Below, in pieces: positions 3,028-34,138 of a stretch of 64,000 nt of DNA. The notes below the pieces were generated by a model. The model was not told where the DNA came from. It made no database searches and saw nothing but the letters and a program-made list of their open reading frames with translations. The position numbers and the translations under genes were made by a program. The DNA is from an uncultured Candidatus Saccharibacteria bacterium (GTDB lineage Bacteria > Patescibacteriota > WWE3 > UBA101185 > UBA10185). Within the stretch, counting starts at the first letter, position 1; each line of letters begins with the position of its first letter. The stretch lies in contig CAYNBT010000001.1 of the NCBI GenBank assembly GCA_964396025.1, positions 109,271-173,270 of the forward strand. Reading direction: 5' to 3'.

Positions 3028-3044
3028 ATTTAGTTGGGCAGATG

Positions 3045-5561: not shown

Positions 5562-5563
5562 AT

Positions 5564-6160: not shown

Positions 6161-6188
6161 ATAGTAAAAAGTATAGCACTAAATTGTT

Positions 6189-10380: not shown

Positions 10381-11213
10381 TTAGTGGAACTCCCAAAATA
10401 TAATACTTTTCTTAAGAACTTGAACAGGGTAATTGTAACCCATGGGTCAACTAGTTGCATTAAGTATGTGGCAAAATAGGCAAATTTGTCTAATATGCTC
10501 ATCTTATATCCATGAGAGTTGGAATATTTTTTTCTGATCTGTAAGGTTAGACTTAGCATTCGCGACATTTTCTCTAAAGTATTGGATTTTTCGTGTTCTC
10601 TGTATCTGATTACAATCTCCTGCAGATTAGCAAACTTGAAATACTGTCCTATTCTAAAAGACATATCAAGATCTTCTGCAGGGGGGAACGACTCGTCGAA
10701 CAACCCAACCTTATCAAAACACTCTTTTCTTACAATTGCTGCAGGTTGAGCTACAGGAGAGAACCTAAAGATATTCTTTCTCAGAACGGCATCATCTGCA
10801 GCATAGGTTCTTATATCAAGATCGCCATTCAAGTTAAATGATTGCAAATAACCGCCACAAATACCTACATCAGGATGCTCTTCCATAAATGCAACTTGGT
10901 GTGAAATCCTCTCAGGATAGGAAATGTCATCTGCATCCTGCCAAACAATGTACTTGCCTTTACATAAAGAGATTCCTCTGTTTCTAGTTCTTGCGATATA
11001 TTGATTTTCTTCGTTTGTGTACAAAGTAATGCGAGAATCACTTAGAGCAAGCTTTTGCGCTACGTCGTGAGTACTATCGGTGGAGCCATCATCGATGATT
11101 AGTATTTCTAGATTGTTGTAAGTTTGCTGCTTAATGCTGTTTACAGCCTCGGTTAAATACTCTTGAGCATTAAACGCTGGAATAATGACGGATACTAACG
11201 GACGTTCTTTCAT
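10377..11213 (-). CDS. Glycosyltransferase family 2
   Basis: [14 protein letters not shown]…[12 protein letters not shown]…QDADD. Confidence 0.8.
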
Positions 11214-12022
11214 TTCAGGCTTTCACCTGTATTTACTCTCATCTGAAGCTCTTTATCAAATGTCCACTTGCGCTTGTTTGAATCGTCATAATACTTTAAA
11301 AAATGCATTCTATAGAACACCGCTATAGTGTCATAAAGCATATCCCTTATTTGCTTGTCCAGAAACAGCGGTCTGTTTTTTTTGAATTTAGAATCTGACG
11401 TAAAATCCAACTCTATCTGAATTGGTGCTTCATATATCCGAGTGTAACCAAGTCTTTGTGCCACTGCCAAAAGCTCAATGTCAAAAGCAAAGGCTTTGAC
11501 CACAAGCCTTGGTAACACGCGTTCTAAAACTTCTCTCCTGTATGCTTTGAGGCCAGCTTGAGTGTCTTTTATCTTTAAACGAAAAAGTAAAAAAACCAGC
11601 AATTGATACCCAAAACTATAGAGACGCCTCATCATAGAATATTTTACCTTTGACGCTGGGTGTCTTTTACTACCAACCATGATATCTGCTTTATACCAAA
11701 TCATATGCTCAAGAAGCATAGATATGCCGTTAGCATCAATCTCCATACCAGAATCTATGAAAAGTATAGGATCACCTTTTGCCCTAGCCATGCCATACCT
11801 AACCGCGTAACCTTTACCTCTGTTTCTTTTGTAACCAACTACAGTAACTTCTTTATCTTTTATTTCTGAAGCCTTCTCAAAGGTTTTATCTAAGAAACCA
11901 TCTACAACTACAATGATTTCAAAGTACCAACGTGTACTCCTCATAATTTCAAGAATATTTTTTACATCAATCTTGATCGTAGATTCTTTTTTATATGCCG
12001 GTATTATTACTGTAACGAACAT
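11210..12022 (-). CDS. GT2 polyprenol-phosphate sugar synthase-like (DPM1/GtrB-like)
   Basis: VTVIIPAYKKESTI…IIVVVDGFLDKT…ILFIDSGM…DTQAGLKAY (the D-x-Q-x-G-[FL]-K motif of DPM1/GtrB-type enzymes). Confidence 0.65.
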   Translation of the reverse strand: MFVTVIIPAYKKESTIKIDVKNILEIMRSTRWYFEIIVVVDGFLDKTFEKASEIKDKEVTVVGYKRNRGKGYAVRYGMARAKGDPILFIDSGMEIDANGISMLLEHMIWYKADIMVGSKRHPASKVKYSMMRRLYSFGYQLLVFLLFRLKIKDTQAGLKAYRREVLERVLPRLVVKAFAFDIELLAVAQRLGYTRIYEAPIQIELDFTSDSKFKKNRPLFLDKQIRDMLYDTIAVFYRMHFLKYYDDSNKRKWTFDKELQMRVNTGESLK

Positions 12023-13313
12023 GCACCTTATAGTATAGCAGAAGACCTGCGAGCATCAATGTTGAACTAAGAATGTTAACATTTATTACTTGAGTCAAGT
12101 TTCTATGAAATCCGTGAATCAATATCCACTGAAGCAAAATCATAGGCAACATAATCAAAAAAACTTTGGTTTTGTTTATTGCAAGAAAATACAGAATAAA
12201 AAAATTTATTAAAACGTATAAAGAAACAAATATAGCAAAATTGGGTAGAAATGTGCTGGCAGCTATAAATTTATCACCAAACATCACAGATACAATTAAG
12301 TCAGGAAAAAAATAAAAGAGAGTTGTTCCACAGATTAGAAGAAACACTTGTAAAAGCAGAAATTGTTTAAAACGAGCGGTATAGTCTACACCTTTAGCGT
12401 GCAAGGACGCAATTTGAGGGAACATCACAACACCTACTGCACCAGCACCAAAAAGCAAAACTTTACCAATGGTAACTACGCCAGAATACAGACCTGCATC
12501 AACCGGGGTAAAAAAGTGTTTAACTAAAATGATGTCTATATTGTTAAGTAACATCAAACAGGCATTTACAACAAATACCGGGGCACTAAAAACAAACACT
12601 TTCTTTACATAACCACCTAATTCTATTTTTAGGGAATCGTATTGAAAATTCTTTCTTAACAAGAAATAACCAAAGCTGTAGTTTATTAATGTAGAAGCTA
12701 TTATCCCAAAAAACACGCCGGACACACCAAAACCTAAATAAGCAAAATAAATAGGAATTATCAATCTGAGGGAGTTTCCCGTAACGAGAAATATAGCGAA
12801 ACCTTTGTAACGTTGCAATCCTTGAAGATAAGCTTGAGGTACAGTTCCCAACAAAGAAAGTGCAACATACAAACTAAACGCAAATAGGGCTTGCCCAGTA
12901 TCAATTCTCAAGTAGTTAGCTAAACTAGACATCCCTACGATCAGTAACGTAAATAATAAAACACCAATACCAAGAAAAATTTTCGAGAAAGAACTAAAGA
13001 GTGCTCTTAAAAGGTGTCGCTCAGCCTCGTTATTCATATCAGAAACGAGCTTGATTAATGAAGTTAAGAAAACGTTATTTGAAAAACCAACAATGTAGAA
13101 AACAGAAAGTAATGATGTAAATACACCGAATTCTTCAACAGTTAAATATCTTCCTAGAAATATTTGCAACAAATAACTTAGGAAGCTAGCTATAAACAAA
13201 CCAACAGATACCACGATAGTTCCCGAAAGAACATTTGTTACAAAGGATTTAAGGTTACCTAGAGACTGCGTAAACATTGTATGAAGGCACTCCTCTAATC
13301 TTGATACTATCAA
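11991..13313 (-). CDS. Polytopic membrane protein, Wzx-like / MOP-superfamily polysaccharide biosynthesis (flippase) candidate
   Basis: About 12 predicted TM helices over 440 aa with no soluble domains; location inside the glycosylation locus. Confidence 0.4.
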   Translation of the reverse strand: MIVSRLEECLHTMFTQSLGNLKSFVTNVLSGTIVVSVGLFIASFLSYLLQIFLGRYLTVEEFGVFTSLLSVFYIVGFSNNVFLTSLIKLVSDMNNEAERHLLRALFSSFSKIFLGIGVLLFTLLIVGMSSLANYLRIDTGQALFAFSLYVALSLLGTVPQAYLQGLQRYKGFAIFLVTGNSLRLIIPIYFAYLGFGVSGVFFGIIASTLINYSFGYFLLRKNFQYDSLKIELGGYVKKVFVFSAPVFVVNACLMLLNNIDIILVKHFFTPVDAGLYSGVVTIGKVLLFGAGAVGVVMFPQIASLHAKGVDYTARFKQFLLLQVFLLICGTTLFYFFPDLIVSVMFGDKFIAASTFLPNFAIFVSLYVLINFFILYFLAINKTKVFLIMLPMILLQWILIHGFHRNLTQVINVNILSSTLMLAGLLLYYKVHVRYSNNTGI

Positions 13314-14886
13314 AATATTTTAACTTAAAACGAGTCTCTAAAGACGAGTAATCATCCCACACAGGATACACAAAGTAATTGGCAAGCTTAGCTTCTGGTG
13401 TAAGGTCTTCTATAACCGCCCAAGCACCAATTTCTCGAATAAATGGCCATAATTGTGTGTAGTATTTCTCAGGGAAGGCAATCACTAGATTAAGATGTTC
13501 CTCAGTGATTGTTGAAATTTCCTCTTCATTAGTAAAAGGAGTATATCTACCCGATTTAATCATTTGAACAAAGTAATCACTAATCTCTTGCTGACCAAAT
13601 AGCCATTTCGACTCCAAAATACGCTGCCCTACTTTTAATCCACCAAAAACAGGATTAAAGTACGAAAAATAGTCAGTGTTGATAAAATACCCCAAGTAGA
13701 AAACCCAAATCAAGACTGAACCAGCAAGGAACTTTGTGATTAAATGTTTTCGTAAATGCAGGAGCATCTGTTCAAACACTGCTGCACAGGAAAAAAGAAT
13801 AAACACAATTGTAGGCAACATATACCTATCAAGTTTTTTGGAACTGAGGGAAATCTCAATCAGATTTATCAGGGCAAAGGCTAACGCAAAGAGCACCAAA
13901 TTCTTCTTGGCACCAGTTAAGGGATGTTTTCTCAAAACAAAATATCCTAATACGATACCAAGAAGTAAGATTGGAGATGATTTCAAAATAAAAACAACCG
14001 GATAAAACGCTAGCCCGGGATCCTCAAGCATTCTGCCAAAAAATATTTGCTCATGCCCTCTTTCCACACCAATCGTAAATATGCCTCTATAAATAGCGTT
14101 AAGAGCATCTAAGGGAATTACCCACATTGCAGGCCAAAATATTATGTACATACACACTACTGCACATAACCACCAACTAAAGGTTCTAAAGGAATCTAGA
14201 ATGCTCTTCTTTATGTCTTTTGTTGAACTATATTTATCAAAAAAGAGCACTAACCCCACCAAAGGAAGCAAAGACAATGCAGAAGATTTTGTAAGTATAG
14301 CTAATGAAGAAAATAGAGCTGAAACAAATAAAAATCTTTTCTCCTTGTCTCTATTGAGACCATACACGAGCCAAGTAAATCCTGCCAACATAAATGTAGT
14401 CATTAACCCCTCCAAATGATAAACACGAGTTAGTGCAAGGTAGAAAGGCTCTAGAGAGAGCAGCAGAACAAAAATGGCAGCATATAATAATCCAAAAAGT
14501 CTTCGTAAGGGGTAGTAGATAAACATTATTGAAATTCCCATCACAAACACAACAAGCAATTTTTGTACAAAATCCATTTGAAAAATTGCAGCAATGTCAT
14601 TGTCAGGGGGAGTTTTGCCAAGTACCAATTCGTAGTAGCCATTAAAGAGCTTGATAGCAAAAGTGCCTGTCCACATCAAAGGCACACCTGGATGATACTT
14701 CTGTAATGTTTTTTCAGGCTGCAGATAAAAAACACCGCTACTAAAATCGTAAGTACGTGATTTCCATTTCCATACATCTGTGTTGAAATTATCGTGCCCA
14801 AGATTAGGTAATCTTGAGAACACAAAGAACACCAACACGACTAAAAGTTCTGCAAGGATTTTACGGTTTTGAGTTAAGAATTTCAT
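13255..14886 (-). CDS. GT-C-fold membrane glycosyltransferase (PMT/ArnT-like), paralog A
   Basis: N-terminal multi-TM region plus C-terminal soluble domain. Shares motifs with 16359..17912: …KYHPGVPLMW…, …GHEQIFFGRMLEDPGLAFYPVVFILKSSP…, …SSKKLDRYMLP…. Confidence 0.5.
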   Translation of the reverse strand: MKFLTQNRKILAELLVVLVFFVFSRLPNLGHDNFNTDVWKWKSRTYDFSSGVFYLQPEKTLQKYHPGVPLMWTGTFAIKLFNGYYELVLGKTPPDNDIAAIFQMDFVQKLLVVFVMGISIMFIYYPLRRLFGLLYAAIFVLLLSLEPFYLALTRVYHLEGLMTTFMLAGFTWLVYGLNRDKEKRFLFVSALFSSLAILTKSSALSLLPLVGLVLFFDKYSSTKDIKKSILDSFRTFSWWLCAVVCMYIIFWPAMWVIPLDALNAIYRGIFTIGVERGHEQIFFGRMLEDPGLAFYPVVFILKSSPILLLGIVLGYFVLRKHPLTGAKKNLVLFALAFALINLIEISLSSKKLDRYMLPTIVFILFSCAAVFEQMLLHLRKHLITKFLAGSVLIWVFYLGYFINTDYFSYFNPVFGGLKVGQRILESKWLFGQQEISDYFVQMIKSGRYTPFTNEEEISTITEEHLNLVIAFPEKYYTQLWPFIREIGAWAVIEDLTPEAKLANYFVYPVWDDYSSLETRFKLKYFDSIKIRGVPSYNVYAVSR

Positions 14887-16378
14887 ATACCTTTATGTTA
14901 GGTCCTTTACGCCTACTGTTATCGAAAGATACTCTTTCTGTTACTTTCTTTTCCACCAACCCTAAATACTCCTGTTCTTCGCGCTGTGAATAACTAATGA
15001 TCGCATATTTAGCGTCTTTCAAATAGGGTAAAAGTTTTGAATATCTTGTTGAGTTATCGTCATAACGAAGTTTTGTAAATATCGGGTTCAAATCTCTGCT
15101 CTCATACAATATAAGGTCATTCGAAGAAGTGTTCTCTAAAAGCCAGTTATAGAGTTGAAGGCGTGTATCTGTACGAGCAAAGATCGCCGAACGCTCAAAC
15201 GAAGAAAAAAGCGGTAACGCTAGTAACAAGACAAACAACAAAAATTGAGCTCTAACGTCACTAAGTCTTCTGGTCAAATGGTGATATGAATAGGTCGCAA
15301 ATATAATCATATAAGGGTATGCAACCATATAATAATGGGACCTGTTTTTAGAAAAACCCGAGATGTAAAACACCAGGAACATAACAACCCCAAGGGCAAA
15401 GGCTGCAAACCATCGGTCTTTGAGCTGAACCAACCTTAACAAACCTGCAAGTAAGAAAAGTGCTGAAAGCAAGGAAAGTAGCATAACCACTATACCTAAG
15501 TCTTCTACAAACATTTGTGAAAACGTAGTTGCGAAGTTTCGCAATCTCGTAACAAAATCCACGCTTCCAACATTTGTGAATTGCCATAAGGCACCCTTTG
15601 GAGAATCAGTTCTAACAAAAGTATCGTAGTCAAAAAGTGCGAACGGTGTACCCAACAAAAATCCTGCAATACTAGCAAGACCTGAATAAACCAGGTTTTT
15701 AGCATTGAACAAGTACTGCTTAAGATCAAGTCTTTCTCTAAGCAGATAAGCAAAGAGAATTGGTATACAAACTAATCCACCATTGTACTTAGTGCTAGCT
15801 GCAAAACCAACAAACAGTCCAGCTAACAAATAATCAGATCTTTTGTTATGCACAAAGATACGAAACACGTAATACATAGAACATGCTACCCAGAAGGTCA
15901 TAGGCACATCTATAAGTACGTAGTGCGACTGCCATACATGGAATGGTATGAGTGCAAAAAGCGCCGCTGCAAATAGAGCTGATCGTCTTGAAAAGAATAA
16001 TTTTACTGTCATGTACACAGGCACTATTGTTGCAGAACCTATAAATACAGTAAGTACTCGCGAGATTAGATAAAAGATCAAATTGTCATCCCATACAATG
16101 GGCACAATGCTTGCAACTGCGTCCTTCAAACTAAACAATTCTAAAATCCCCCTAAACTTGATAAACAGAAGATAGAACATGTAGTTGAGATAGATAAAAT
16201 GGTGAGGCCAATCAAAATGAGCAGGATTTAAATCAAAACGTAATGCCAAAGCAGATCTAACAACAGTAGGTTCATCAGGATGGAATATAAAAGGAAAACC
16301 GTGAAATATCCCGTAAAGCCTGATAATTAAAGCACCTATAAAAATAAATATTAATGTTTTATCTAGTTTCCTTAGCAT
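14861..16378 (-). CDS. GT-C-fold membrane glycosyltransferase, GT39/GT83 (PMT/ArnT)-like
   Basis: IFHGFPFIFHPDEPTVV (an acidic DE motif in the first extracytoplasmic loop, typical of GT39/83), 11-13 TM helices, C-terminal soluble domain. Confidence 0.6.
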   Translation of the reverse strand: MLRKLDKTLIFIFIGALIIRLYGIFHGFPFIFHPDEPTVVRSALALRFDLNPAHFDWPHHFIYLNYMFYLLFIKFRGILELFSLKDAVASIVPIVWDDNLIFYLISRVLTVFIGSATIVPVYMTVKLFFSRRSALFAAALFALIPFHVWQSHYVLIDVPMTFWVACSMYYVFRIFVHNKRSDYLLAGLFVGFAASTKYNGGLVCIPILFAYLLRERLDLKQYLFNAKNLVYSGLASIAGFLLGTPFALFDYDTFVRTDSPKGALWQFTNVGSVDFVTRLRNFATTFSQMFVEDLGIVVMLLSLLSALFLLAGLLRLVQLKDRWFAAFALGVVMFLVFYISGFSKNRSHYYMVAYPYMIIFATYSYHHLTRRLSDVRAQFLLFVLLLALPLFSSFERSAIFARTDTRLQLYNWLLENTSSNDLILYESRDLNPIFTKLRYDDNSTRYSKLLPYLKDAKYAIISYSQREEQEYLGLVEKKVTERVSFDNSRRKGPNIKVYEILNSKP

Positions 16379-24677: not shown

Positions 24678-25842
24678 ATATTTGATTTATTTGGGCTGCC
24701 TTTGCATCCCAAGAGTAGCGTTGGGCAATCTTTTGAGTATCAACAAAGATGCTCGAGTCAACTACGTGCTTAATCTGTTCAGCTATCTTTTCGGGGGCTA
24801 GATCTTCTAAATAAACTAGACCTTCTATTACATCTTGCGCCTTAAATCCTGAAACCAGCGCAGGCACACCACAGGAAAGAACCTCCATCACAACCTTGGG
24901 AAAACCTTCAACTTTGGAAGGCAAAACAAAGATGTCTGCCGCCTGAATAGCAACCGGTATGGACGGGTAAGGCGTATATCCAATTTTTATAAAACGATCA
25001 GAAAGATTGAGTTCTCTTACGCGCTCGTTCAATCTCTCCATGTAAGCTTCGTCACCATCCCCCAATAATATTAATTTGTACTCGAGTGGTAAAAGTGCCA
25101 ATGCCTCTATAAGTAAATGGATGTTCTTTCTTTCAACAAGCGCACCATAATTCAAAATCACTTTATCGTGCGGGATAAGTCCCAACTCTTTGCGTGTCTT
25201 ATCTTGTTCGTCCGGTGTAATCTTTTTAAACAAGGCCGGATTAACTCCAGATTCAACAATATAACATTTTGCAGGATCTGTTTTGTAATATTTAATTGCG
25301 TCTGATCTTAGCTCTTCTCCCACAAAAATACATGCATCTGCAACGTCCGATGCGAGTTGGTTGGCAAAAATCTCAAGAGGCCAAGTAAGCATTCCAGATA
25401 CAAACTTGGGCTGCTCTCCTTTTTCCTTCATTTTCTCCCAACGGCTTTTTGCAATGATATGAAAGTGCGCTACTAAGGGTATCTTCAGTTCAGAACATTT
25501 AGGTAAAAAGTATTTAAGTAATTTCCTATAAAAAAAGATCCATATACCAAAATGCCCATGCGCATGTATCACATCTGGTCTGTTACTCAAACGCCAATAT
25601 AGATAGTAGATAAACATAGCAGGTGCGATAGTCAATGCAAGAGTTCCAGATATAGGCTCTCTAAAGAAAGTGCGGAGATTTACATTAGGAATACTTTCCG
25701 GCTTTCCACTGTTGGGCCAACTGCCACAGAACACTGTTATTTTGTGACCCAATCTGCTTTGTGCGGAAGTTACCTCAAATGGGTGAGGTACTAAACCCAA
25801 CCATGGAGGAGGCCATTCGTAACTAATTCTTAGAATATTCAT
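24649..25842 (-). CDS. Glycosyltransferase family 4
   Basis: Glyco_trans_4-like N-terminus; C-terminal …FVLPSKVEGFPKVVMEVLSCGVPALVS… (GT4 E-x7-E region). Confidence 0.75.
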   Translation of the reverse strand: MNILRISYEWPPPWLGLVPHPFEVTSAQSRLGHKITVFCGSWPNSGKPESIPNVNLRTFFREPISGTLALTIAPAMFIYYLYWRLSNRPDVIHAHGHFGIWIFFYRKLLKYFLPKCSELKIPLVAHFHIIAKSRWEKMKEKGEQPKFVSGMLTWPLEIFANQLASDVADACIFVGEELRSDAIKYYKTDPAKCYIVESGVNPALFKKITPDEQDKTRKELGLIPHDKVILNYGALVERKNIHLLIEALALLPLEYKLILLGDGDEAYMERLNERVRELNLSDRFIKIGYTPYPSIPVAIQAADIFVLPSKVEGFPKVVMEVLSCGVPALVSGFKAQDVIEGLVYLEDLAPEKIAEQIKHVVDSSIFVDTQKIAQRYSWDAKAAQINQIYEKILSKAN

Positions 25843-27028
25843 TCATAACCTCATTAAAAACTTGTTCGTATTTACTAATCATAACATCAAGCGTAAACAG
25901 TTGCTGAGCCTCTTGGCGACTATATGTTCCAAATTGTTTCCTAAGCTCAAAGCTCTGCTCTAAAAGGAGCATTTTGGTTTTTAGCTCCAAAAGATCTCCA
26001 GATTTCACTAGATATCCGTTTTTTTCACTTTCCACAGCATCAGAATTTCCGCCTTTGTCAGAAGCAATTACAGGTAAACCACAGAACATCGCCTCAACAA
26101 TAGTCATAGGAAATCCTTCAACTCGAAGCGTAGGAAGAACAAATATGTCCATTTTGACCAATTCCCCCATAACCTGCGAGTATGGAATAGTACCGTGGAA
26201 ATGTACTCTTGTCTCAATAGACAAAACATGCGCAAGCCTTTTTAGAGTCGCTAGTTCCGGACCAGCGCCAATGATATGAAGAAAAGCGTTCTTAAAACTG
26301 CCATCTGCAAAGGCTCGGAGAAGCACATGGACGCCTTTCGAAGAATCCAGTCTGCCCAAATAAACAAAATTCACTTTTTCAGAGGCAGAGGCAGAATAGT
26401 CTTTGGAAATAGCTGGAACTTTGACGCCGTTATGAATCACTACAATTTTGGAGGGACTCACAAAGGTTTCCTCAATAATACTTGTTTTGACATAGTTAGA
26501 AACCGCTACAAGTCTTGTAGATCCATGCACAAATTCGCGTTGGGTAAAAAAGAAAGCATAAAAGACATGTGGTAAATCTAACATCAATCTCAAAAATTCT
26601 TTTATCCCTGAAAAACTTTCCCATCGAGATTGAAATTCTCCCACTTTACTTCCGTGCAATATAGAAACTATCGGGACTCCAAGCTTTTCCTTGACTTTAA
26701 AGAGTCCCAATGCACCGGAACTCTGACTCAGTATCAGATCAAACTTTTCACTTGCTGTACGGCTAATGTAAGCTTCAATGGATTTTTGATTCCAGGTTTT
26801 TGAAAAAAGGGAGAATAAAAGATTGAAACCTCTTACTACACAAGGCACGAACACATACTCAACGTTATTTTCATGATATGAGGTAACGGTAAGATTGCGT
26901 TGAGGCGAGAAAACTACGATTTTGTGTCCTCTCAGGGCTAATCCTTCACACAAAAGCTTATTCTGAGTTTCAAACCCTCCATAACTCTTATGCAATGTAG
27001 TGTTTTTGATAAAGACAGCAATATTCAC
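25823..27028 (-). CDS. Glycosyltransferase family 4
   Basis: …YLGRLDSSKGVHVLLRAF…IFVLPTLRVEGFPMTIVEAMFCGLPVIASDKGGN…. Confidence 0.8.
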   Translation of the reverse strand: MNIAVFIKNTTLHKSYGGFETQNKLLCEGLALRGHKIVVFSPQRNLTVTSYHENNVEYVFVPCVVRGFNLLFSLFSKTWNQKSIEAYISRTASEKFDLILSQSSGALGLFKVKEKLGVPIVSILHGSKVGEFQSRWESFSGIKEFLRLMLDLPHVFYAFFFTQREFVHGSTRLVAVSNYVKTSIIEETFVSPSKIVVIHNGVKVPAISKDYSASASEKVNFVYLGRLDSSKGVHVLLRAFADGSFKNAFLHIIGAGPELATLKRLAHVLSIETRVHFHGTIPYSQVMGELVKMDIFVLPTLRVEGFPMTIVEAMFCGLPVIASDKGGNSDAVESEKNGYLVKSGDLLELKTKMLLLEQSFELRKQFGTYSRQEAQQLFTLDVMISKYEQVFNEVMNEYSKN

Positions 27029-27040
27029 ATATACATTGTA

Positions 27041-28348
27041 TCAAGAAAGGAGTAATTCTTGGAGTTGCTTAACGTTAGTATCAAGATGAAACATCTCTGA
27101 GGCTTTTTTAAATGCATGTTTGACCAAGCTTTCTCGTACAACATGATTATGCAACAAATTCTCAATCTGATCCGCAAGGGCATGCGAATCTTTTTGTGGA
27201 ATGACGATACCTGTTACATTGTGCTCAACTAGGTCTGTTATACTACCTGCGGATGTAGCAATTATGGGGATTTTGGCTAAAGCTGCCTCTATTACAACAG
27301 TCGGAACGCCATCCATATCTCCTTCATTTGTTTCAATACTTGGAAACACAAAAATGTCTGCAATTTTATAGTAATCAACCACTTGATCGAACGGAGTTCC
27401 CTTACCTTCACCATGAATAAAAACATTATCAGACAGTCCAAGCTCGTGTATTTGATCTTGTAATTCTTTGTACAGGGGCCCAGGGCCAACTATTTCTACC
27501 TGATGGTCTACGCCCCTACTCTTAAGTATCTTTGATGCTTCAATAACATATTTAATGCCTTTCTTCTCCACCAAACGTGTTCCACCCATAAATATTACAG
27601 GTCTTTGGGGTTTCACTAATCTCGAATCCCCCGCGAATATTTTCTCGTGATCAATACCGTGATAAATCAGTTTAACCTTTGGCTTTAACTCAAGAGGAAT
27701 TTGATCCACAACTGTTTGCCAGGTTCTTTTGTTACATATTGCTATGAACTTTGCATACTGTGCTTTTGTAGCAATAAGCGAATTATCAACTATGGCATCC
27801 TTAGCATGCGCAGAAATACTAAATGGAATATGCAAAACATGCGCAGCAACCATAGCAATTGTTGAGAAACTTGACAAAAAATGTACATGAATATGATCCG
27901 GCTTATACTCACTGAAAATCTTTGCATAGGCAACTCCTTTTAGCATGTAAAAAATTCGTGCCTTATGAAATCGACCAACAATGCTGGAATGATCTTCGTG
28001 TGCATTCTGAGCCCTAAGATTTAAGAACAGTGGTTCCTTGTCCGAACCAGATATCAACTTAAAAAGCTCGATTATTCTGCGTGGGCTAAAGAGAAGATAT
28101 TTGACAAAGGCGCTTATCGCAATACGCGCAGTAAGTCTTTGATATACAACAGCACGCCTTGCTAGTTCGGACATTGTACCGCTGGCAGGAGATAACGAGA
28201 GGATTCTGATATCCATTTGATCAAGTTCAAGGAGTTTAGTGATCTCACGCTCAATAAAGGTCTCAGTTAGACGTGGGAATTCTGGAACAAAGTACAAAAC
28301 TTTTTTCTTGCGTAAAGTAGGTTGCTTATTTTCCATTTTTTTCATCAT
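27041..28348 (-). CDS. Glycosyltransferase family 4
   Basis: …FMGGTRLVEKKGIKYVIEA…IFVFPSIETNEGDMDGVPTVVIEAALAKIPIIATSAGS…. Confidence 0.8.
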   Translation of the reverse strand: MMKKMENKQPTLRKKKVLYFVPEFPRLTETFIEREITKLLELDQMDIRILSLSPASGTMSELARRAVVYQRLTARIAISAFVKYLLFSPRRIIELFKLISGSDKEPLFLNLRAQNAHEDHSSIVGRFHKARIFYMLKGVAYAKIFSEYKPDHIHVHFLSSFSTIAMVAAHVLHIPFSISAHAKDAIVDNSLIATKAQYAKFIAICNKRTWQTVVDQIPLELKPKVKLIYHGIDHEKIFAGDSRLVKPQRPVIFMGGTRLVEKKGIKYVIEASKILKSRGVDHQVEIVGPGPLYKELQDQIHELGLSDNVFIHGEGKGTPFDQVVDYYKIADIFVFPSIETNEGDMDGVPTVVIEAALAKIPIIATSAGSITDLVEHNVTGIVIPQKDSHALADQIENLLHNHVVRESLVKHAFKKASEMFHLDTNVKQLQELLLS

Positions 28349-29696
28349 TCAATATTGCGTAAGGCCCGCTTTTACTTATGTGTTCACTACCATTGGTTTT
28401 TTTACCAATCGCAAAATAGGTAGCACCCGCATCCTCTATCTCTCTTTGATTAAGAATATTACGCCCATCAAAAACCATTTTTCCCGCCAGGTTTTTAATG
28501 ATTGAAGCATTCAAATTTCTAAATTCATCCCATGGGGTAAGAACACATAAAGCATCTACATCCTTAACAGCATCTGAAATATCGGTCGCATAATGTATCT
28601 GCCCATCTCCAAGCATCTTGCGAGCATTCTCCATAGCAGCGGGATCATATACGCGTAATGTTGCTCCCCTACCTCTCAACAATCTAACAAGTGCTACAGC
28701 AACTGAATCTCTTGTATCATCTGTGTTTTCCTTAAATGCCAAACCCAAGCATGCGAAAGTTTTACCCGAAAGGTTTTCCCCCATAGCATGAACGATTTTG
28801 CGCAAAAAGAAATGCTTCTGGATATCATTAACCTCCATGACACCACGTAAAAGCTTAAAGTCATATGCCTGATCTGTGGATGTTTTGTAAAGTGCAGCAA
28901 CATCTTTTGGAAAACAACTACCGCCGTAACCAATAGATGCGTTCAAAAACTTGGGTCCAATTCTTTTATCAAGCCCCATGCCCTTTGCGACGGTTGTGAC
29001 ATCGGCACCAGCACGCTCGCATATTTGGGCAATCTCATTTATGAAAGATATTTTTGTAGCCAAAAAAGCGTTAGAGGCATACTTAATCATTTCAGCTGAG
29101 CGCAAATCACATTCTACTAAGGGAGCATCCAGATGCGCATAAAGTCTTTTCATGATATCCATCGCCTTTTTAGATTCTGCTCCAACAACTGTCCTATCCG
29201 GATTACGCATATCTTCAATGGAATATCCCTCTTTTAAAAATTCGGGATTTGAGGCTACATCAAATTCAACGGAAGTGTCTAGAAGATTCTCTTTAACTAT
29301 TTTTTTTACGTACTCGTTAGTACCCACAGGAACAGTACTTTTTGTCACAATCACTTTGTAGGAGGTTAGGTTTCTGCCAATGTCTTGTGCTACTTTGGTT
29401 ACCGCAGTAAGATCTGCGGCACCTGTATCACCCTGAGGTGTTCCAACACATATAAACACTATTTCCGCATCTGACATCGCTTCTTTTAAGTTTGTGGTAA
29501 ATTTTAAGCGACCTTCGCTGATATTTTTTAGCACTACTGGAGCAAGATCGGGCTCATAGATAGGCATGATACCCTTTTTAATCTTTTCTACTTTAGCTGT
29601 ATCAATGTCGAGTCCAACGACATCATTACCCCAATCCGCAAATATTGCTGAACCAACTAAACCTACATATCCTGTGCCAATAACACAAAGTTTCAT
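28326..29696 (-). CDS. ugd: UDP-glucose 6-dehydrogenase (nucleotide-sugar dehydrogenase family)
   Basis: MKLCVIGTGYVGLVGSA… Rossmann N-terminus; catalytic GGSCFPKD motif. Start set at MKLCVIG (AAGGAG 5 nt upstream on the minus strand). Confidence 0.85.
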   Translation of the reverse strand: MKLCVIGTGYVGLVGSAIFADWGNDVVGLDIDTAKVEKIKKGIMPIYEPDLAPVVLKNISEGRLKFTTNLKEAMSDAEIVFICVGTPQGDTGAADLTAVTKVAQDIGRNLTSYKVIVTKSTVPVGTNEYVKKIVKENLLDTSVEFDVASNPEFLKEGYSIEDMRNPDRTVVGAESKKAMDIMKRLYAHLDAPLVECDLRSAEMIKYASNAFLATKISFINEIAQICERAGADVTTVAKGMGLDKRIGPKFLNASIGYGGSCFPKDVAALYKTSTDQAYDFKLLRGVMEVNDIQKHFFLRKIVHAMGENLSGKTFACLGLAFKENTDDTRDSVAVALVRLLRGRGATLRVYDPAAMENARKMLGDGQIHYATDISDAVKDVDALCVLTPWDEFRNLNASIIKNLAGKMVFDGRNILNQREIEDAGATYFAIGKKTNGSEHISKSGPYAILNDEKNGK

Positions 29697-29781
29697 AGGA
29701 CTCCTTATTGCACGCAATCAGTACAACCACGTGCGTTAAATAATTTACACACAATAACAAAAAGTAGCAAAAGACTGCATA

Positions 29782-30606
29782 TTAGTTTTTATTGTATTTT
29801 CCTCTGAGATCATTAAGTTTGACTTTTACAACATCTAAGAAATTATCAATCGAAGCTCTAATAGGAGGAACACGATTAGTCTTTACATATGTCCAAGAAA
29901 CGGGAATCTCTTTGGTTTTAAAACCCAACCTTTTGGCAATCACCAACACTTCTACGTCAAAAGCACTTACACGAGGACGTTTCGTTTCTGGTGTATTGTC
30001 GCCAAAAAGAATCATCCTTGAAAAGATTTCTGCGCAAGCATTTTGTGTAAACAGTTTAAAACCACATTGAGTGTCGTTTATCTTGGGTAACACCAATAAT
30101 CTAACCAAGAAATTAAATCCCCTTCCCATAATATGACGAATCAACGGCTCATTTTTTCTTAAAGCCCCTACTCCTTCGCGGGAGGCTATCACAACATCAT
30201 AATCATGCTCTTGCACCCATGTAAGAAGGCGCTTAAGTTCCTCGATGGGGGTTGCCATATCCGCATCGGCCATAAGTATATATTTTCCCCGAGAACTCAA
30301 CATGCCTGTTCTAACTGCTACACCTTTTCCTTTGTGTGGATTCTTTATCAAGTGGATTTCTGGATGATATATTGCGTAATTCTCCACGATCTCAGCAGTT
30401 TTATCGGCACTGCCATCATCTACAACTATTATTTCATAAGCAACCGGCGTAACTTTATCTGATGACGAATCCCGTATGCTGAAAGAATTCATAAAATTTA
30501 CTATCTGAGTGAGTGAGGCAGTGATACCTGATTCTTCATTGTAGGCAGGTATAACTACACTAATGTCTGGGAGTTCGTCTTGAATTAATGAATCTAATTT
30601 TTCCAT
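29782..30606 (-). CDS. GT2 polyprenol-phosphate sugar synthase-like (DPM1-like)
   Basis: ISVVIPAYNEESGI…IIVVDDGSADKT…ILMADADMATPIEEL. Confidence 0.75.
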   Translation of the reverse strand: MEKLDSLIQDELPDISVVIPAYNEESGITASLTQIVNFMNSFSIRDSSSDKVTPVAYEIIVVDDGSADKTAEIVENYAIYHPEIHLIKNPHKGKGVAVRTGMLSSRGKYILMADADMATPIEELKRLLTWVQEHDYDVVIASREGVGALRKNEPLIRHIMGRGFNFLVRLLVLPKINDTQCGFKLFTQNACAEIFSRMILFGDNTPETKRPRVSAFDVEVLVIAKRLGFKTKEIPVSWTYVKTNRVPPIRASIDNFLDVVKVKLNDLRGKYNKN

Positions 30607-31709
30607 ATAATTTTGCTATAAACTGTAAAGTTCCAAATTAAACCTATGACCACTCCTATCATAAACGCAACATTCGCAACGAGAATTGTATCAGAGAAGC
30701 GTGCCGTTGCAAGATTTACAAGAAAGCTTCTAAAAGCGATGGGCACATAGGATAGCACAATATAGGCAAGTAGTTTTTTTAAAGTCTGGGCATTTCCTTG
30801 AATCTTCCTGTCACTAAATGACCAATAGTTGTTAAGTGTGTATGTTGTCAACATAGCTAAAAATCCCGAGACCGCACTCGACATGCTTGAAGCAAATATC
30901 AAGTATCTAAGTAAGTTAAATAAACTGATATCCGTGAACATTCCAATAAATCCCACGATACAGAATTTAAAAAAGCTCTTGCTTTCATTATATCTCAACA
31001 TAAGAACCACTTTGATAGAATCTTGCAGATTGTTTCTTTCCATCTTTGAATCACCGCGATCCCGCAAACCAAAAGTTATGGGTATTTCAGTAATCTTGGC
31101 TCCAATCTTGTACATTTTAAATAGTAAATCAATCTTATAAGCAAAACCGCTAGATCTTACTGTAGTCAAATCAATCTTATCCAAGAAGCCTTTTACGCGA
31201 GAAGCTTTGTAACCCGATGTAAAGTCATTTATTGTATAAATACCTAGCACAACCTTAGAAAACAAACTGCCTCCCCAGCTCAACAACTTTCTGTGCAGCG
31301 ACCAATGCTTTGGAATAGATCCTCCGGAGATAAATCTTGATCCAATAACATAATCACTGCCCTTTTCTAACTCTGCAACGAAACGTCTTATATCTTGCGG
31401 GTCGTGTTGAAAATCAGCATCCATTTCGATCAAAACATCTGGTGAAAGATTACTTAGGGCGTAACTAAAACCATACATGTATGCAGCTCCTAAGCCTGCT
31501 TTCTTTTGCTCCGTTAAAAGCTGAAGAAATGGATACTTAGCAGATAATTCGGAAACGAGCTTTCCTGTACCATCTGGAGAATTACCATCCACAATTAAAG
31601 CAACAAATTGATGCTGAGGTAATCGAGAAAACTCAGTAGCAAGCACGGGCGCTAGCTTACTTACATTCTCGAACTCATTGTAAGTAGGAATAACAATTAC
31701 TATCTTCAT
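30594..31709 (-). CDS. GT2 (DPM1/GtrB-like) fused to C-terminal GtrA-like 4-TM domain
   Basis: KIVIVIPTYNEFENV…LIVDGNSPDGT…IEMDADFQHDP then FCIVGFIGMFTDISLFNLLRY…YTLNNYWSFSD (GtrA-family pattern). Confidence 0.75.
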   Translation of the reverse strand: MKIVIVIPTYNEFENVSKLAPVLATEFSRLPQHQFVALIVDGNSPDGTGKLVSELSAKYPFLQLLTEQKKAGLGAAYMYGFSYALSNLSPDVLIEMDADFQHDPQDIRRFVAELEKGSDYVIGSRFISGGSIPKHWSLHRKLLSWGGSLFSKVVLGIYTINDFTSGYKASRVKGFLDKIDLTTVRSSGFAYKIDLLFKMYKIGAKITEIPITFGLRDRGDSKMERNNLQDSIKVVLMLRYNESKSFFKFCIVGFIGMFTDISLFNLLRYLIFASSMSSAVSGFLAMLTTYTLNNYWSFSDRKIQGNAQTLKKLLAYIVLSYVPIAFRSFLVNLATARFSDTILVANVAFMIGVVIGLIWNFTVYSKIIWKN

Positions 31710-31726
31710 GTATGAGAATTATATAA

Positions 31727-31999
31727 TTAAAGGTTCAAAACACCTAGTAACAGCAAAAAAACGAACGAACCGAACAAGATGTATTCAAGAGCCACAAGTC
31801 TGTTAAGCCTACCCTCAAGGCGATGATGTATTATCCCCCATAACATGTAAAAGGTGCTACCAACACCTGCGAGTATTGTTTGTAAGACAGGCATGTTTTG
31901 AAAACGGAACATCAATAAAAGATATACAAACATCCCACAGATTAAAACCAAATAATGTATCAGATGCTTGTACTCACTCTGATTGTAATCGTGTTTCAT
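31727..31999 (-). CDS. Small 2-3 TM membrane protein, hypothetical
   Basis: 90-aa ORF, hydrophobic, translationally coupled (4-nt overlap) with the upstream CAP-domain gene. Confidence 0.35.
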   Translation of the reverse strand: MKHDYNQSEYKHLIHYLVLICGMFVYLLLMFRFQNMPVLQTILAGVGSTFYMLWGIIHHRLEGRLNRLVALEYILFGSFVFLLLLGVLNL

Positions 32000-34042: not shown

Positions 34043-34138
34043 CACTAACCTCCTTGAGTTATGTTTTCCAAATGTTAACATACATACCCACTGTATTCAA
34101 ACTATAGGGCCTTGACACAGTTATGCTACAATATTTGC

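What the first reader, a model, noticed from the sequence alone, without database searches (positions are those of the whole stretch)
11210..31709. Repeated 'three-component' glycosylation modules (GtrB/DPM1-like GT2 + GtrA/flippase + GT-C)
Four GT2 genes carry the DPM1/GtrB signature (11210-12022, 22403-23119, 29782-30606, 30594-31709), the last fused to a GtrA-like domain. Each sits next to, or a few genes from, a GT-C membrane transferase (13255-17912 x3, 20282-22402 DUF2079, 23100-24677) and a flippase-like protein (17890-18825). By analogy to CsbB/GtcA/YfhO and GtrABC, each set could add a different sugar from a polyprenol-phosphate donor on the outer face. Several such sets in tandem would make a combinatorial glycan-decoration system.
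Basis: inference. Interest (0 to 1): 0.55.

Follow-up and report, generated by a model that had tools for sequence, protein, structure and literature searches.

The report
Conserved multi-GT-C envelope glycosylation operon
This is a large operon, conserved across the uncultured WWE3 (Katanobacteria) lineage of ultra-small bacteria, that has the enzymes to load sugars onto lipid carriers inside the cell and attach them to a surface glycan outside it; the chemistry is a known kind, and it looks like one fixed pathway rather than a mix-and-match decoration kit.

Summary
All listed ORFs exist. The four GT2 proteins have polyprenyl-phosphate glycosyltransferases (DPMS, ArnC, GtrB) as their best solved relatives. 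One, 30594-31709, matches P. furiosus DPMS over its full length, including the 4-helix TM domain. The five polytopic proteins are GT-C enzymes: four are PMT/ArnT-like, and the DUF2079 protein is GT-C by predicted fold. 17890-18825 is an MprF-type flippase-like protein.

The organism is a candidate division WWE3 bacterium (Patescibacteria). The 18-gene block 11210-32886 keeps the same gene order in nearly all of 49 WWE3-type species representatives, so it is a fixed lineage-wide pathway, not a combinatorial set of repeated modules. Only GT2 22403-23119 and GT-C 23100-24677 behave as a module, being absent together at least three independent times.

The best reading is one assembly line. Cytoplasmic Ugd and GT4 enzymes build a lipid-linked glycan, it is flipped, and GT-C enzymes extend or branch it outside using donors from the DPM1-like synthases. 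The acceptor and sugars are unknown. I rate it a new member of a known kind, of moderate interest.

The parts
31996..32886 (-). First gene of the array: membrane protein with a CAP/YkwD domain. Role in the pathway is unknown.
   Evidence: PF00188 CAP 3e-20. TIGR02909 YkwD 1e-24. Orthologue at the head of the cluster in 73% of full-flank loci. A 59-nt intergenic region lies upstream, before a divergent SET-domain gene.
31727..31999 (-). Conserved 90-aa small membrane protein (2-3 TM helices) directly upstream of the DPMS gene. It could be a membrane partner for the TM-less GT2 synthases; this is inference only.
   Evidence: Hydropathy. Only a weak DUF5656 hit. Present in 84% of loci.
30594..31709 (-). 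DPMS-type polyprenyl-phosphate glycosyltransferase: a GT2 catalytic domain fused to a 4-helix GtrA/DPMS TM domain.
   Evidence: PF00535 plus PF04138. Full-length match to PfDPMS 5mlz at 1e-40. Retains E12, the DAD-x-Q motif, R117, R131, S135, R202 and K208 of PfDPMS; the guanine-reading Asp39 is Gly. Present in 88% of loci.
29782..30606 (-). Soluble DPM1-like GT2 (DAD motif; DTQCGFK motif). Candidate second polyprenyl-P-sugar synthase.
   Evidence: PF00535 1e-31. Best PDB hit DPMS 2e-12, then ArnC and GtrB. No TM segment. Present in 90% of loci.
28326..29717 (-). UDP-glucose 6-dehydrogenase, which supplies UDP-glucuronic acid.
   Evidence: All three UDPG_MGDP_dh domains, E 3e-68, 5e-38 and 2e-32. 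Present in 78% of loci at median 65% identity.
24649..28348 (-). Three consecutive cytoplasmic GT4 (GT-B fold) glycosyltransferases: 27041-28348, 25823-27028, 24649-25842.
   Evidence: PF00534/PF13692/PF13439. Only generic NCBIfam hits, none reaching an equivalog cut-off. Present in 94-98% of loci.
23100..24677 (-). GT-C enzyme (PMT_2 type) that behaves as a unit with the adjacent GT2 22403-23119.
   Evidence: PMT_2 1.3e-8, 35.6 bits against a cut-off of 26.1. hhalign probability 95% to the 14861 family. Invariant E34 and D37 after TM1. Present in 84% of loci, and never present without the GT2.
22403..23119 (-). Soluble ArnC/AglJ-like GT2 (DAD motif). Candidate donor synthase for GT-C 23100-24677.
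   Evidence: PF00535 3e-31. AglJ model 2.5e-31 and ArnC model 1.6e-22. PDB ArnC 7e-21. Lost jointly with GT-C 23100 at least three times.
20282..22402 (-). DUF2079 protein: a GT-C fold glycosyltransferase with a C-terminal beta-sandwich domain.
18822..20285 (-). Wzx-type (MOP superfamily) flippase candidate B.
   Evidence: Polysacc_synt_3 3e-19 and Polysacc_synt 3e-14. Present in 100% of loci.
17890..18825 (-). MprF-type flippase-like membrane protein. It is accessory to the cluster.
   Evidence: PF03706 2.4e-41. TIGR00374 'flippase-like domain' 72.8 bits against a cut-off of 43.2. Present in 76% of loci; cleanly absent in about 10, including the complete genome CP006914.
16359..17912 (-). GT-C enzyme (ArnT/PMT_2-like), paralogue of 13255-14886.
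   Evidence: PMT_2 below threshold at 21 bits. hhalign to the 13255 family E 3e-72, and 94% probability to the 14861 family. Invariant D41 after TM1. Present in 98% of loci.
14861..16378 (-). GT-C enzyme of the PMT (protein O-mannosyltransferase, GT39-like) family, without MIR domains.
   Evidence: PF02366 PMT 3.9e-16 and PMT_2 4e-15. Profile against PDB: yeast Pmt1 1.2e-14. Invariant D35-E36 after TM1. Present in 94% of loci.
13255..14886 (-). GT-C enzyme (ArnT/PMT_2-like).
   Evidence: PMT_2 26.2 bits against a cut-off of 26.1. Profile against PDB: ArnT 5ezm 1e-4. Invariant D37. Present in 98% of loci.
11991..13313 (-). Wzx-type (MOP superfamily) flippase candidate A.
   Evidence: Polysacc_synt_3 3e-16. 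Present in 82% of loci.
11210..12022 (-). DPM1-like GT2 with a non-canonical but conserved D-[AS]-G-M-[DE] in place of DxD. It is the last gene of the conserved block.
   Evidence: PF00535 2.7e-20. Best PDB hit DPMS 1e-12 over residues 2-215. 30% identical over 225 aa to 29782-30606. Orthologue consensus. Present in 73% of loci; fused to a second GT2 domain in some.
934..11213 (-). Strain-variable 3' extension of the same gene array:
- EpsE-like GT2 (10377-11213)
- GDP-mannose 4,6-dehydratase (9325-10380)
- epimerase/reductase (8409-9458)
- GT4 (7244-8509)
- Glyco_trans_1_2 (6189-7283)
- three methyltransferases (4090-6160)
- TM-anchored GT2 (3045-4112)
- a sixth GT-C fold protein (934-3027)
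   Evidence: Pfam. None of these genes has an orthologue in the 49 related loci, except one for 10377. For 934-3027: AF2 pLDDT 85; Foldseek AftD 2e-10, STT3 3.5e-5, ArnT 5e-4. It has no Pfam family.

Best explanation
The region is the core of a single, lineage-conserved cell-envelope glycan operon of a candidate division WWE3 (Katanobacteria, Patescibacteria) bacterium.

Shown:
- It encodes four DPM1/ArnC-type GT2 enzymes, five GT-C transferases (six counting 934-3027), two Wzx/MOP proteins, one MprF-type flippase-like protein, three GT4 enzymes and UDP-glucose dehydrogenase.
- All lie on one strand with no gap above 64 nt.
- The same order recurs in almost every related genome.

Inferred mechanism:
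1. In the cytoplasm, Ugd supplies UDP-GlcA, and the three GT4 enzymes build a short glycan on a membrane lipid carrier. The carrier could be a polyprenyl (pyro)phosphate or a glycolipid.
2. In parallel, the DPM1-like GT2 enzymes load single sugars onto polyprenyl phosphate.
3. The Wzx-type proteins, the MprF-like protein and possibly the DPMS TM domain move these lipid-linked species to the outer face.
4. There the GT-C enzymes each add a defined sugar or linkage, extending or branching the glycan. One of them (14861, PMT family) may instead transfer sugar to protein.

The GT2 22403 and GT-C 23100 pair is an optional branch step. The variable 3' genes (6-deoxyhexose synthesis, methyltransferases, further GTs and a sixth GT-C) provide strain-specific elaboration.

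It therefore works like lipomannan/LAM assembly, or the luminal half of the dolichol pathway, rather than like several independent Gtr-type seroconversion modules.
For: Part identities:
- (Pfam, NCBIfam).
- the best solved relatives of all four GT2 are DPMS, ArnC or GtrB. One search is the negative control.
- DUF2079 has the GT-C fold; the other GT-Cs relate to Pmt1 and ArnT and to each other.
- invariant acidic residues lie in the loop after TM1 in every GT-C family.

The four GT2 align with each other over 214 aa or more, but with the other GT2 proteins only over the N-terminal 72-125 aa.

Operon-like layout: one strand, overlapping or abutting ORFs.

Lineage and conservation:
- 50-60% identical homologues are named WWE3.
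- the gene order is co-linear in 80 loci.
- core genes are present in 73-100% of 49 full-flank loci, while every gene from 10377-11213 down to 934 (the array's variable 3' part) has 0-2% presence.
- a related block (GT-C, GT2, DUF2079, Wzx, GT-C, GT-C) exists in more distant Patescibacteria (L080).

Coupling of GT2 22403 with GT-C 23100: both present in 41 loci, neither in 5, GT-C alone in 0. There were at least three independent joint losses on a DUF2079 tree, with clean junctions.

Background:
- WWE3 genomes are unusually rich in glycosyltransferases and lacked a complete identifiable peptidoglycan pathway (PMC3812714).
- A polyprenyl-P-sugar synthase, a flippase and a GT-C are the hallmark of extracytoplasmic glycosylation (PMC11127046).
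Against: - No biochemical evidence exists for any of these proteins. Donor sugars, lipid carrier and acceptor are all unknown.
- No initiating phosphoglycosyltransferase, Wzy-type polymerase, ligase or LCP enzyme was found in the window. How the glycan is started and where it ends up cannot be read from the sequence.
- Three of the four GT2 lack TM helices. One has a non-canonical DxD. The DPMS-like protein lacks the guanine-reading Asp. So 'polyprenyl-P-sugar synthase' remains an assignment by similarity.
- Co-linearity shows selection for the arrangement, not that all genes act on one product.
- The PMT-family GT-C could act on proteins.
- Orthology was called by best BLAST hit to the window proteins, and some absences are contig-end artefacts.
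Confidence: 0.55

Rival explanations
1. One reading: several independent three-component modules (GT2 synthase, flippase, GT-C) sit in tandem. Each decorates a pre-formed glycan with a different sugar, and together they give combinatorial, strain-variable surface decoration.
For: - All three part types are present, several times over.
- One GT2/GT-C pair (22403 and 23100) is gained or lost as a unit.
- In other Patescibacteria, GT2+PMT_2 pairs recur next to homologues of 934-3027 (L085), so pairs do move as modules within the phylum.
- Multiple sets in one organism are known in lactococci and streptococci (papers listed).
Against: - Gene content and order are fixed across 49 species-level genomes. 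No reassortment or copy-number variation of modules is seen.
- The genes are grouped by type, with three GT-C in a row and two synthases in a row, not as repeated triplets.
- There are four synthase candidates for five GT-C.
- There is no free-standing GtrA.
- The region that does vary (934-11213) is made mostly of cytoplasmic enzymes.
Confidence: 0.15
2. The GT-C enzymes are mainly protein glycosyltransferases, as in the actinobacterial Ppm1/Pmt system. The DPMS-type enzyme makes polyprenyl-P-mannose and the PMT-like GT-Cs O-glycosylate secreted or surface proteins (S-layer, pili). The Ugd, GT4 and Wzx genes would serve a separate polysaccharide.
For: - 14861-16378 passes the PMT family threshold, matches yeast Pmt1 at 1e-14 as a profile, and has the invariant Asp-Glu pair after TM1.
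- The DPMS-type synthase lies in the same operon.
- Kantor et al. suggested glycoproteins or a glycosylated S-layer for WWE3.
Against: - Only one of the five GT-C passes the PMT model. The others are nearer ArnT or are DUF2079.
- The C-terminal domain of the DUF2079 protein resembles glycan-binding modules (weak evidence).
- The tight interleaving of GT-C genes with Wzx and GT4 genes in a fixed order suggests a shared product.
- No acceptor protein is identifiable.
Confidence: 0.2
3. The region is a glycosylation island with no common pathway. Genes for unrelated envelope processes are simply kept together, for example by co-regulation, and the GT2 and GT-C genes are not functionally paired.
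For: - No pairing can be demonstrated by sequence, except for 22403 and 23100.
- The MprF-like gene and that pair are dispensable in some genomes.
- Promoter and terminator scans neither support nor exclude internal transcription units.
Against: - Overlapping start and stop codons run through most of the array.
- Co-linearity is retained at only 40-65% protein identity, including in more distant Patescibacteria. This argues for functional coupling.
- GT-C enzymes need lipid-phosphate sugar donors, and the candidate synthases for them are in the same operon.
Confidence: 0.1

Closest known systems
Three-component extracytoplasmic glycosylation systems: GtrA/GtrB/Gtr* of Shigella and Salmonella, CsbB/GtcA/YfhO for LTA, GacI/J/K/L and SccN/M/P/Q of streptococci, lactococcal Csd pairs
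   Same: A GT2 polyprenyl-P-sugar synthase, a flippase and a GT-C transferase that acts outside the membrane. GacK shows that a Wzx-type flippase can play the flippase role. Several pairs can coexist in one organism.
   Different: - There are five to six GT-C and four synthase candidates in one operon, arranged in blocks rather than as repeated sets.
- There is no free-standing GtrA.
- Three synthases have no TM anchor.
- The cluster is invariant across a whole lineage, rather than being serotype-specific or phage-borne.
- Two of the GT-C families (DUF2079 and the 934-3027 family) have no characterised member.
Lipomannan/LAM and arabinogalactan assembly in Corynebacterineae: Ppm1, GT4 PimA/PimB/MgtA, and GT-C PimE, MptA-C, Emb and Aft enzymes (comparison from background knowledge)
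   Same: Cytoplasmic GT4 enzymes start a lipid-anchored glycan. After flipping, a series of GT-C enzymes extend and branch it using polyprenyl-P-sugar from a DPM1-like synthase. The Corynebacterium LM-B anchor contains glucuronic acid, which parallels the Ugd gene placed before the GT4 genes here. 934-3027 is structurally closest to AftD.
   Different: The phylum is different. No sequence-level orthology to the Mpt, Emb or Pim enzymes was found. The genes here form one operon rather than being scattered. The lipid anchor and sugars are unknown.
Dolichol pathway of eukaryotes and archaea: DPM1/DPMS, ALG5, RFT1 (MOP family), the luminal ALG GT-C enzymes, PMT, and AglD/AglR/AglS
   Same: - 30594-31709 is a full-length relative of archaeal DPMS (5mlz).
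- The DUF2079 model superposes on ALG12, ALG9, Pmt4 and STT3.
- The overall logic matches: cytoplasmic GT-B steps, a MOP-type flippase, then GT-C steps fed by lipid-P-Man or lipid-P-Glc type donors.
   Different: - No STT3/PglB-type oligosaccharyltransferase was identified. There is only a weak N-terminal cross-hit.
- The guanine-reading Asp39 of DPMS is replaced by Gly.
- The ALG5-likeness of 29782-30606 (DTQCGFK motif) is recalled from memory and was not tested.
ArnC/ArnT lipid A aminoarabinose pathway
   Same: Ugd, an ArnC-like GT2 (22403, best PDB hit ArnC) and ArnT-like PMT_2 GT-C enzymes are all present.
   Different: No ArnA, ArnB, ArnD or ArnE/F homologues are in the array. The organism lacks LPS (PMC3812714).

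Membership tests
DPMS-type polyprenyl-phosphate mannose synthase (PfDPMS, 5mlz), tested on 30594-31709 | GT-A catalytic domain with the DAD-x-Q metal/diphosphate motif | tested here: met
   EMDADFQHDP aligns with VMDADLQHPP. The motif's role is described in PMC5526996.
DPMS-type polyprenyl-phosphate mannose synthase (PfDPMS, 5mlz), tested on 30594-31709 | Dol-P phosphate-positioning residues (R117, R131, S135) and acceptor-loop residues (R202, K208) | tested here: met
   All five are conserved in the phmmer alignment, read against the residue roles.
DPMS-type polyprenyl-phosphate mannose synthase (PfDPMS, 5mlz), tested on 30594-31709 | C-terminal four-helix TM domain (GtrA_DPMS_TM) | tested here: met
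   PF04138 1.1e-14 over residues 248-369. The alignment to 5mlz runs to residue 363.
DPMS-type polyprenyl-phosphate mannose synthase (PfDPMS, 5mlz), tested on 30594-31709 | Guanine-specific contact (Asp39), which implies a GDP-mannose donor | tested here: not met
   VDGNSPDGT aligns with VDDDSPDRT, so Asp39 is replaced by Gly, and most WWE3 orthologues share this. The donor nucleotide sugar therefore cannot be assigned.
GtrB/ArnC-type polyprenyl-P glycosyltransferases, tested on 22403, 29782 and 11210 | Closest solved relatives are polyprenyl-P GT2 enzymes across the whole catalytic domain | tested here: met
   The negative control 3045-4112 gives generic GT2 structures first.
GtrB/ArnC-type polyprenyl-P glycosyltransferases, tested on 22403, 29782 and 11210 | Canonical DxD motif | tested here: inconclusive
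   DAD is present in 22403 and 29782. In 11210 it is D-S-G-M-E, and the orthologue consensus is D-A-G-M-D.
GtrB/ArnC-type polyprenyl-P glycosyltransferases, tested on 22403, 29782 and 11210 | C-terminal TM helices that anchor the enzyme in the membrane | tested here: not met
   Hydropathy finds no TM segment in 22403 or 29782, and none that is credible in 11210. They would need a membrane partner, as human DPM1 does (background knowledge).
GtrB/ArnC-type polyprenyl-P glycosyltransferases, tested on 22403, 29782 and 11210 | Transfer of a sugar from a nucleotide sugar to polyprenyl phosphate | not testable with these tools
   This needs an enzyme assay.
GT-C fold glycosyltransferases | Polytopic membrane domain with a GT-C fold or GT-C family profile | tested here: met
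   - Pfam PMT or PMT_2 for 13255, 14861 and 23100.
- 16359 by paralogy.
- 934-3027 by AF2 plus Foldseek.
GT-C fold glycosyltransferases | Conserved acidic residue(s) in the first loop after TM1 | tested here: met
   The invariant residues are:
- D35/E36 in 14861
- D37 in 13255
- D41 in 16359
- E34/D37 in 23100
- D52/D57 in DUF2079
- D32 in 934-3027

Sources. The outside orientation of the loop was not tested.
GtrA family flippase | Free-standing small 4-TM PF04138 protein | tested here: not met
   PF04138 occurs only as the C-terminal domain of 30594-31709.
MprF-type flippase-like domain (PF03706/TIGR00374) | Full-length match to the family profile above the curated cut-off | tested here: met
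   PF03706 142.6 bits against 33.4. TIGR00374 72.8 bits against 43.2. There is no direct sequence hit to a solved MprF, and flipping activity is not testable here.
Wzx/Wzy-dependent polysaccharide pathway | Wzx flippase together with an initiating phosphoglycosyltransferase and a Wzy polymerase or ligase | tested here: not met
   Two Wzx-like genes are present. No Bac_transf homologue was found by tblastn with the one in L002. No Wzy, ligase, WecA or LCP family appears among the proteins scanned. These genes may lie outside the window.
Three-component extracytoplasmic glycosylation system | Functional linkage of a given synthase with a given GT-C | tested here: inconclusive
   Only 22403 and 23100 co-vary: both present in 41 loci, neither in 5, GT-C alone in 0, with at least three joint losses. 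The other pairings cannot be resolved.

The most novel reading that the evidence does not exclude
The 18-gene block is the biosynthetic line for the defining envelope polymer of Katanobacteria. The product would be a lipid-anchored or wall-associated glycan built mostly outside the cell by five sequential GT-C enzymes, drawing on three or four different polyprenyl-P-sugars. That would make it a bacterial counterpart of the luminal dolichol pathway, or of LAM assembly. It may be essential in these ~0.9-Mb genomes, which were reported to lack a complete recognisable peptidoglycan pathway. DUF2079 and the 934-3027 family would be new functional GT-C classes.
Probability: 0.2. Interest if true: 0.65.

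Novelty: new member of a known kind. Interest (0 to 1): 0.35.

Why it matters
Patescibacteria (CPR) make up a large share of bacterial diversity and live attached to other cells, yet their surface chemistry is almost unknown.

- A roughly 21-kb operon takes up about 2% of a 0.9-Mb genome. Keeping it in the same order throughout a lineage implies a conserved and probably important surface glycan.
- The operon gives concrete targets: four candidate lipid-sugar synthases, five to six GT-C enzymes and three kinds of candidate flippase. These can be used for heterologous biochemistry and for interpreting cryo-ET or glycomics of enrichments.
- It assigns a fold and a likely role to DUF2079, for which the literature search found no paper. 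It also identifies a Pfam-less GT-C family.
- The underlying mechanism, a polyprenyl-P-sugar donor used by a GT-C on the outer face, is well established. The finding extends known biology rather than overturning it.

Tried and rejected
Searches that gave nothing or were uninformative:
- Exact-sequence look-ups of the window proteins found nothing on record. Context came from homologues instead.
- The PDB profile search for GT-C 23100 found nothing. PDB sequence searches for the MprF-like and Wzx-like proteins also found nothing.
- hhalign did not link DUF2079 to the PMT_2-type families (probabilities 0.7-14%). Only the predicted fold does.
- Promoter and terminator scans gave no more sites than shuffled sequence.
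- No tRNA or Rfam family is in the window.
- No paper mentions DUF2079, and none combines Patescibacteria with GT-C.

Readings considered and rejected:
- An Arn (aminoarabinose) pathway: Ugd, an ArnC-like GT2 and ArnT-like GT-Cs are present, but ArnA, ArnB and ArnD are not.
- A classical Wzx/Wzy O-antigen-type locus: no phosphoglycosyltransferase or Wzy is in the window.
- Recent tandem duplication of the three adjacent GT-Cs: only 13255 and 16359 are paralogues, at 29% identity, and 14861 is not detectable by BLAST.
- GT2 3045-4112 as a fifth lipid-P-sugar synthase pairing with 934-3027: its solved relatives are generic GT2 enzymes, although the two genes do travel together.
- A prophage or mobile-element origin: the flanks are housekeeping genes and the cluster is chromosomally conserved.

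Not tested: the ALG5-likeness of 29782-30606.

Full report
**Observation**

The window carries an unbroken array of 28 minus-strand ORFs from 32886 down to 934. Neighbouring ORFs overlap or abut, and the largest gap is 64 nt. Every coordinate in the finding corresponds to one of these ORFs.

Pfam and NCBIfam assign the genes in transcription order as follows:

| Coordinates | Assignment |
|---|---|
| 31996-32886 | CAP/YkwD-domain membrane protein |
| 31727-31999 | 90-aa membrane protein |
| 30594-31709 | GT2 fused to GtrA_DPMS_TM |
| 29782-30606 | GT2 |
| 28326-29717 | UDP-glucose dehydrogenase |
| 24649-28348 | three GT4 enzymes |
| 23100-24677 | PMT_2 GT-C |
| 22403-23119 | GT2 |
| 20282-22402 | DUF2079 |
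| 18822-20285 | Wzx-like MOP protein |
| 17890-18825 | LPG_synthase_TM / TIGR00374 'flippase-like' protein |
| 16359-17912, 14861-16378, 13255-14886 | three PMT/PMT_2-type proteins |
| 11991-13313 | second Wzx-like protein |
| 11210-12022 | GT2 |
| 10377-11213 | EpsE-like GT2 |
| 9325-10380 | GDP-mannose 4,6-dehydratase |
| 8409-9458 | epimerase/reductase |
| 7244-8509, 6189-7283 | two GT-B transferases |
| 4090-6160 | three methyltransferases |
| 3045-4112 | TM-anchored GT2 |
| 934-3027 | 697-aa polytopic protein with no family |

**Are the four GT2 enzymes DPM1/GtrB-like?**

For each of them, the best solved relatives are polyprenyl-phosphate glycosyltransferases.

- 30594-31709 matches Pyrococcus furiosus DPMS (5mlz) at E 1e-40 from residue 1 to 363, through the four-helix TM domain.
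  - Read against the residue roles in PMC5526996, it keeps Glu12, the DAD-x-Q motif, Arg117, Arg131, Ser135, Arg202 and Lys208.
  - The guanine-reading Asp39 is Gly. I therefore do not assign GDP-mannose as the donor.
- 22403-23119 is closest to ArnC (7e-21), then DPMS and GtrB. Its best NCBIfam model is AglJ.
- 29782-30606 is closest to DPMS at 2e-12, and 11210-12022 at 1e-12.

The four align with one another over 214 aa or more. With the other GT2 proteins of the array they align only over the N-terminal nucleotide-binding half.

As a control, the GT2 at 3045-4112 gives generic GT2 structures first, with DPMS only at 6e-4.

Two departures remain:
- 11210-12022 has D-S-G-M-E where the others have DAD. 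Its 44 orthologues conserve D-[AS]-G-M-[DE], so this is a maintained variant and not decay.
- Three of the four have no TM segment, unlike GtrB and ArnC.

**Are the polytopic proteins GT-C enzymes?**

- 14861-16378 passes the PMT and PMT_2 thresholds. As a profile it hits yeast Pmt1 at 1.2e-14.
- 13255-14886 passes PMT_2 by 0.1 bit (26.2 against 26.1). As a profile it hits ArnT at 1e-4.
- 16359-17912 is below threshold but is a clear paralogue of 13255 (hhalign E 3e-72).
- 23100-24677 passes PMT_2.
- All four families are linked to each other at 75-100% hhalign probability.

Each family has invariant acidic residues in the loop after TM1. None of the proteins groups with transporters.

**Organism and conservation**

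The DUF2079 protein has hundreds of homologues at 50-60% identity, named candidate division WWE3 or Patescibacteria. The identical protein lies on a 247-kb NCBI contig.

A scan of one genome per species returned 80 loci. Their records are titled WWE3, 'Patescibacteria group' or 'uncultured Candidatus Saccharibacteria', and they include the complete genome CP006914. I mapped ORFs in these loci to the window proteins by BLAST.

The order CAP, s90, DPMS, GT2, Ugd, GT4 x3, [GT-C, GT2], DUF2079, Wzx, [MprF-like], GT-C x3, Wzx, GT2 is co-linear almost everywhere, at 35-70% identity.

Presence among 49 loci with full flanks:

| Gene(s) | Presence |
|---|---|
| DUF2079, Wzx-B | 100% |
| the three tandem GT-C | 94-98% |
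| GT4 enzymes | 94-98% |
| GT2 29782, GT2 22403 | 90% |
| DPMS | 88% |
| GT-C 23100, s90 | 84% |
| Wzx-A | 82% |
| Ugd | 78% |
| MprF-like | 76% |
| CAP, GT2 11210 | 73% |
| every gene from 10377-11213 down to 934 | 0-2% |

A looser version of the block (GT-C, GT2, DUF2079, Wzx, GT-C, GT-C) is present in more distant Patescibacteria (L080).

**Module behaviour**

GT-C 23100 and GT2 22403 are both present in 41 loci, both absent in 5, and the GT-C is never present alone. Where they are absent, GT4c abuts DUF2079 directly.

On a neighbour-joining tree of DUF2079 proteins, the joint absences fall in a basal grade and in two nested positions. That gives at least three independent joint losses. One small clade (L072, L009) keeps the GT2 next to DUF2079 in a broken cluster that lacks the GT-C. 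This is the only pair for which coupling is supported.

The MprF-like gene is cleanly missing in about ten loci, including the complete genome, and was lost at least three times. It is therefore dispensable or redundant with other flippase candidates.

**Interpretation**

'Repeated modules' and 'combinatorial' do not fit a cluster with a fixed gene order, a fixed composition and genes grouped by type.

The reading I favour is a single assembly line. Ugd and three GT4 enzymes make a GlcA-containing lipid-linked primer in the cytoplasm. Four DPM1-like enzymes charge polyprenyl phosphate with single sugars. The Wzx-type and MprF-type proteins, and possibly the DPMS TM domain, translocate these lipid-linked species. 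Four to five GT-C enzymes then extend or branch the glycan outside. The pair 22403/23100 is an optional step, and the variable 3' genes provide strain-specific finishing.

This mirrors lipomannan/LAM assembly and the luminal dolichol pathway (background knowledge). It also fits the hallmark of extracytoplasmic glycosylation, a GT-C enzyme using a lipid-phosphate donor (PMC11127046).

What is shown: the family and fold assignments, the synteny and the co-variation. What is inferred: the substrates, the order of steps, the flippase roles and the acceptor.

Three gaps remain:
- The window holds no phosphoglycosyltransferase (tblastn with the Bac_transf gene that some relatives carry between the GT4 genes was negative).
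- It holds no Wzy, ligase or LCP enzyme among the proteins scanned.
- Because 14861 is a PMT-family protein, protein O-glycosylation remains a live alternative for at least that enzyme.

**Comparison with the literature**

- Three-component systems, and multiple sets in one organism, are well described (papers listed).
- CPR genome papers have noted abundant glycosyltransferases in WWE3 and an incomplete identifiable peptidoglycan pathway (PMC3812714).
- They have also noted multiple 'dolichol-phosphate mannosyltransferase' genes, and possible PIM-like glycolipids, in other CPR lineages (PMC4736985, PMC6031116).
- I found no description of this cluster and no paper mentioning DUF2079.

I rate it a new member of a known kind. 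It is of moderate interest for CPR envelope biology but is not surprising mechanistically.

**Side results**

- 934-3027 is a sixth GT-C fold protein (AF2 pLDDT 85; Foldseek AftD 2e-10, STT3, ArnT). Its family comprises about 30 Patescibacteria proteins and has no Pfam model. A ~345-aa GT2 and methyltransferases always precede it.
- Unrelated to the finding, the 1.1-kb ORF-free stretch 50714-51806 folds about ten standard deviations better than shuffles on both strands and has no Rfam match.

Noticed in passing
window 50714-51806: A 1.1-kb stretch between recJ and secF with no ORF above 82 aa and higher GC than its surroundings. It has no Rfam match even at E<=1. It folds far better than shuffles on both strands (851 nt, z about -10) and contains several long near-perfect hairpins. 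It could be a large structured non-coding RNA or an array of palindromic elements.
   Followed up: partly
window 934-3027: A 697-aa polytopic protein with no Pfam or NCBIfam family. It is predicted to be a GT-C fold enzyme closest to mycobacterial AftD (Foldseek 2e-10), with a C-terminal TM helix. Its family has about 30 members, all from Patescibacteria, and a ~345-aa GT2 and methyltransferases always precede it.
   Followed up: yes
window 934-11213: The 3' third of the gene array has no counterpart in 49 related genomes. It holds an EpsE-like GT2, GDP-mannose 4,6-dehydratase with an epimerase/reductase, two GT-B enzymes, three methyltransferases and a TM-anchored GT2. It looks like the strain-variable part of the locus, possibly making methylated 6-deoxyhexose decorations.
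   Followed up: partly
window 31727-31999: A 90-aa protein with 2-3 TM helices is conserved immediately upstream of the DPMS-type gene in 84% of related loci. It has no family assignment. It might anchor the TM-less GT2 enzymes, as DPM3 and GacJ do for their partners, but this is speculation.
   Followed up: no
window 30594-31709: The DPMS-type enzyme keeps all catalytic and acceptor residues of PfDPMS but has Gly at the guanine-reading Asp39 (VDGNSPDGT), and its orthologues share this. The nucleotide-sugar donor may not be GDP-mannose.
   Followed up: partly
L002 6902-7525 (also L003, L004): In one WWE3 lineage a 207-aa Bac_transf phosphoglycosyltransferase gene sits on the opposite strand between the GT4 genes, and the GT-C/GT2 pair is missing. 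The window has no homologue of this initiating enzyme.
   Followed up: partly
L001 20590-22088, L002 20385-22130, L033, L069: In some relatives the orthologue of GT2 11210-12022 is the N-terminal domain of a ~600-aa protein with a second GT2 domain. In most relatives, and in the window, it is a separate ~270-aa protein.
   Followed up: partly
window 34112-35691: A deoxyhypusine synthase family gene (PF01916, 2.5e-95) lies next to an S-adenosylmethionine decarboxylase gene. This looks like a polyamine or hypusine-like pathway in a CPR bacterium. A SET-domain protein gene lies at 32946-33509.
   Followed up: no
window 31996-32886: The C-terminal two TM helices (residues 218-286) of the CAP/YkwD-domain protein at the head of the operon give a weak, sub-threshold match to the PMT profile (E 0.004). 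This is probably not meaningful.
   Followed up: no
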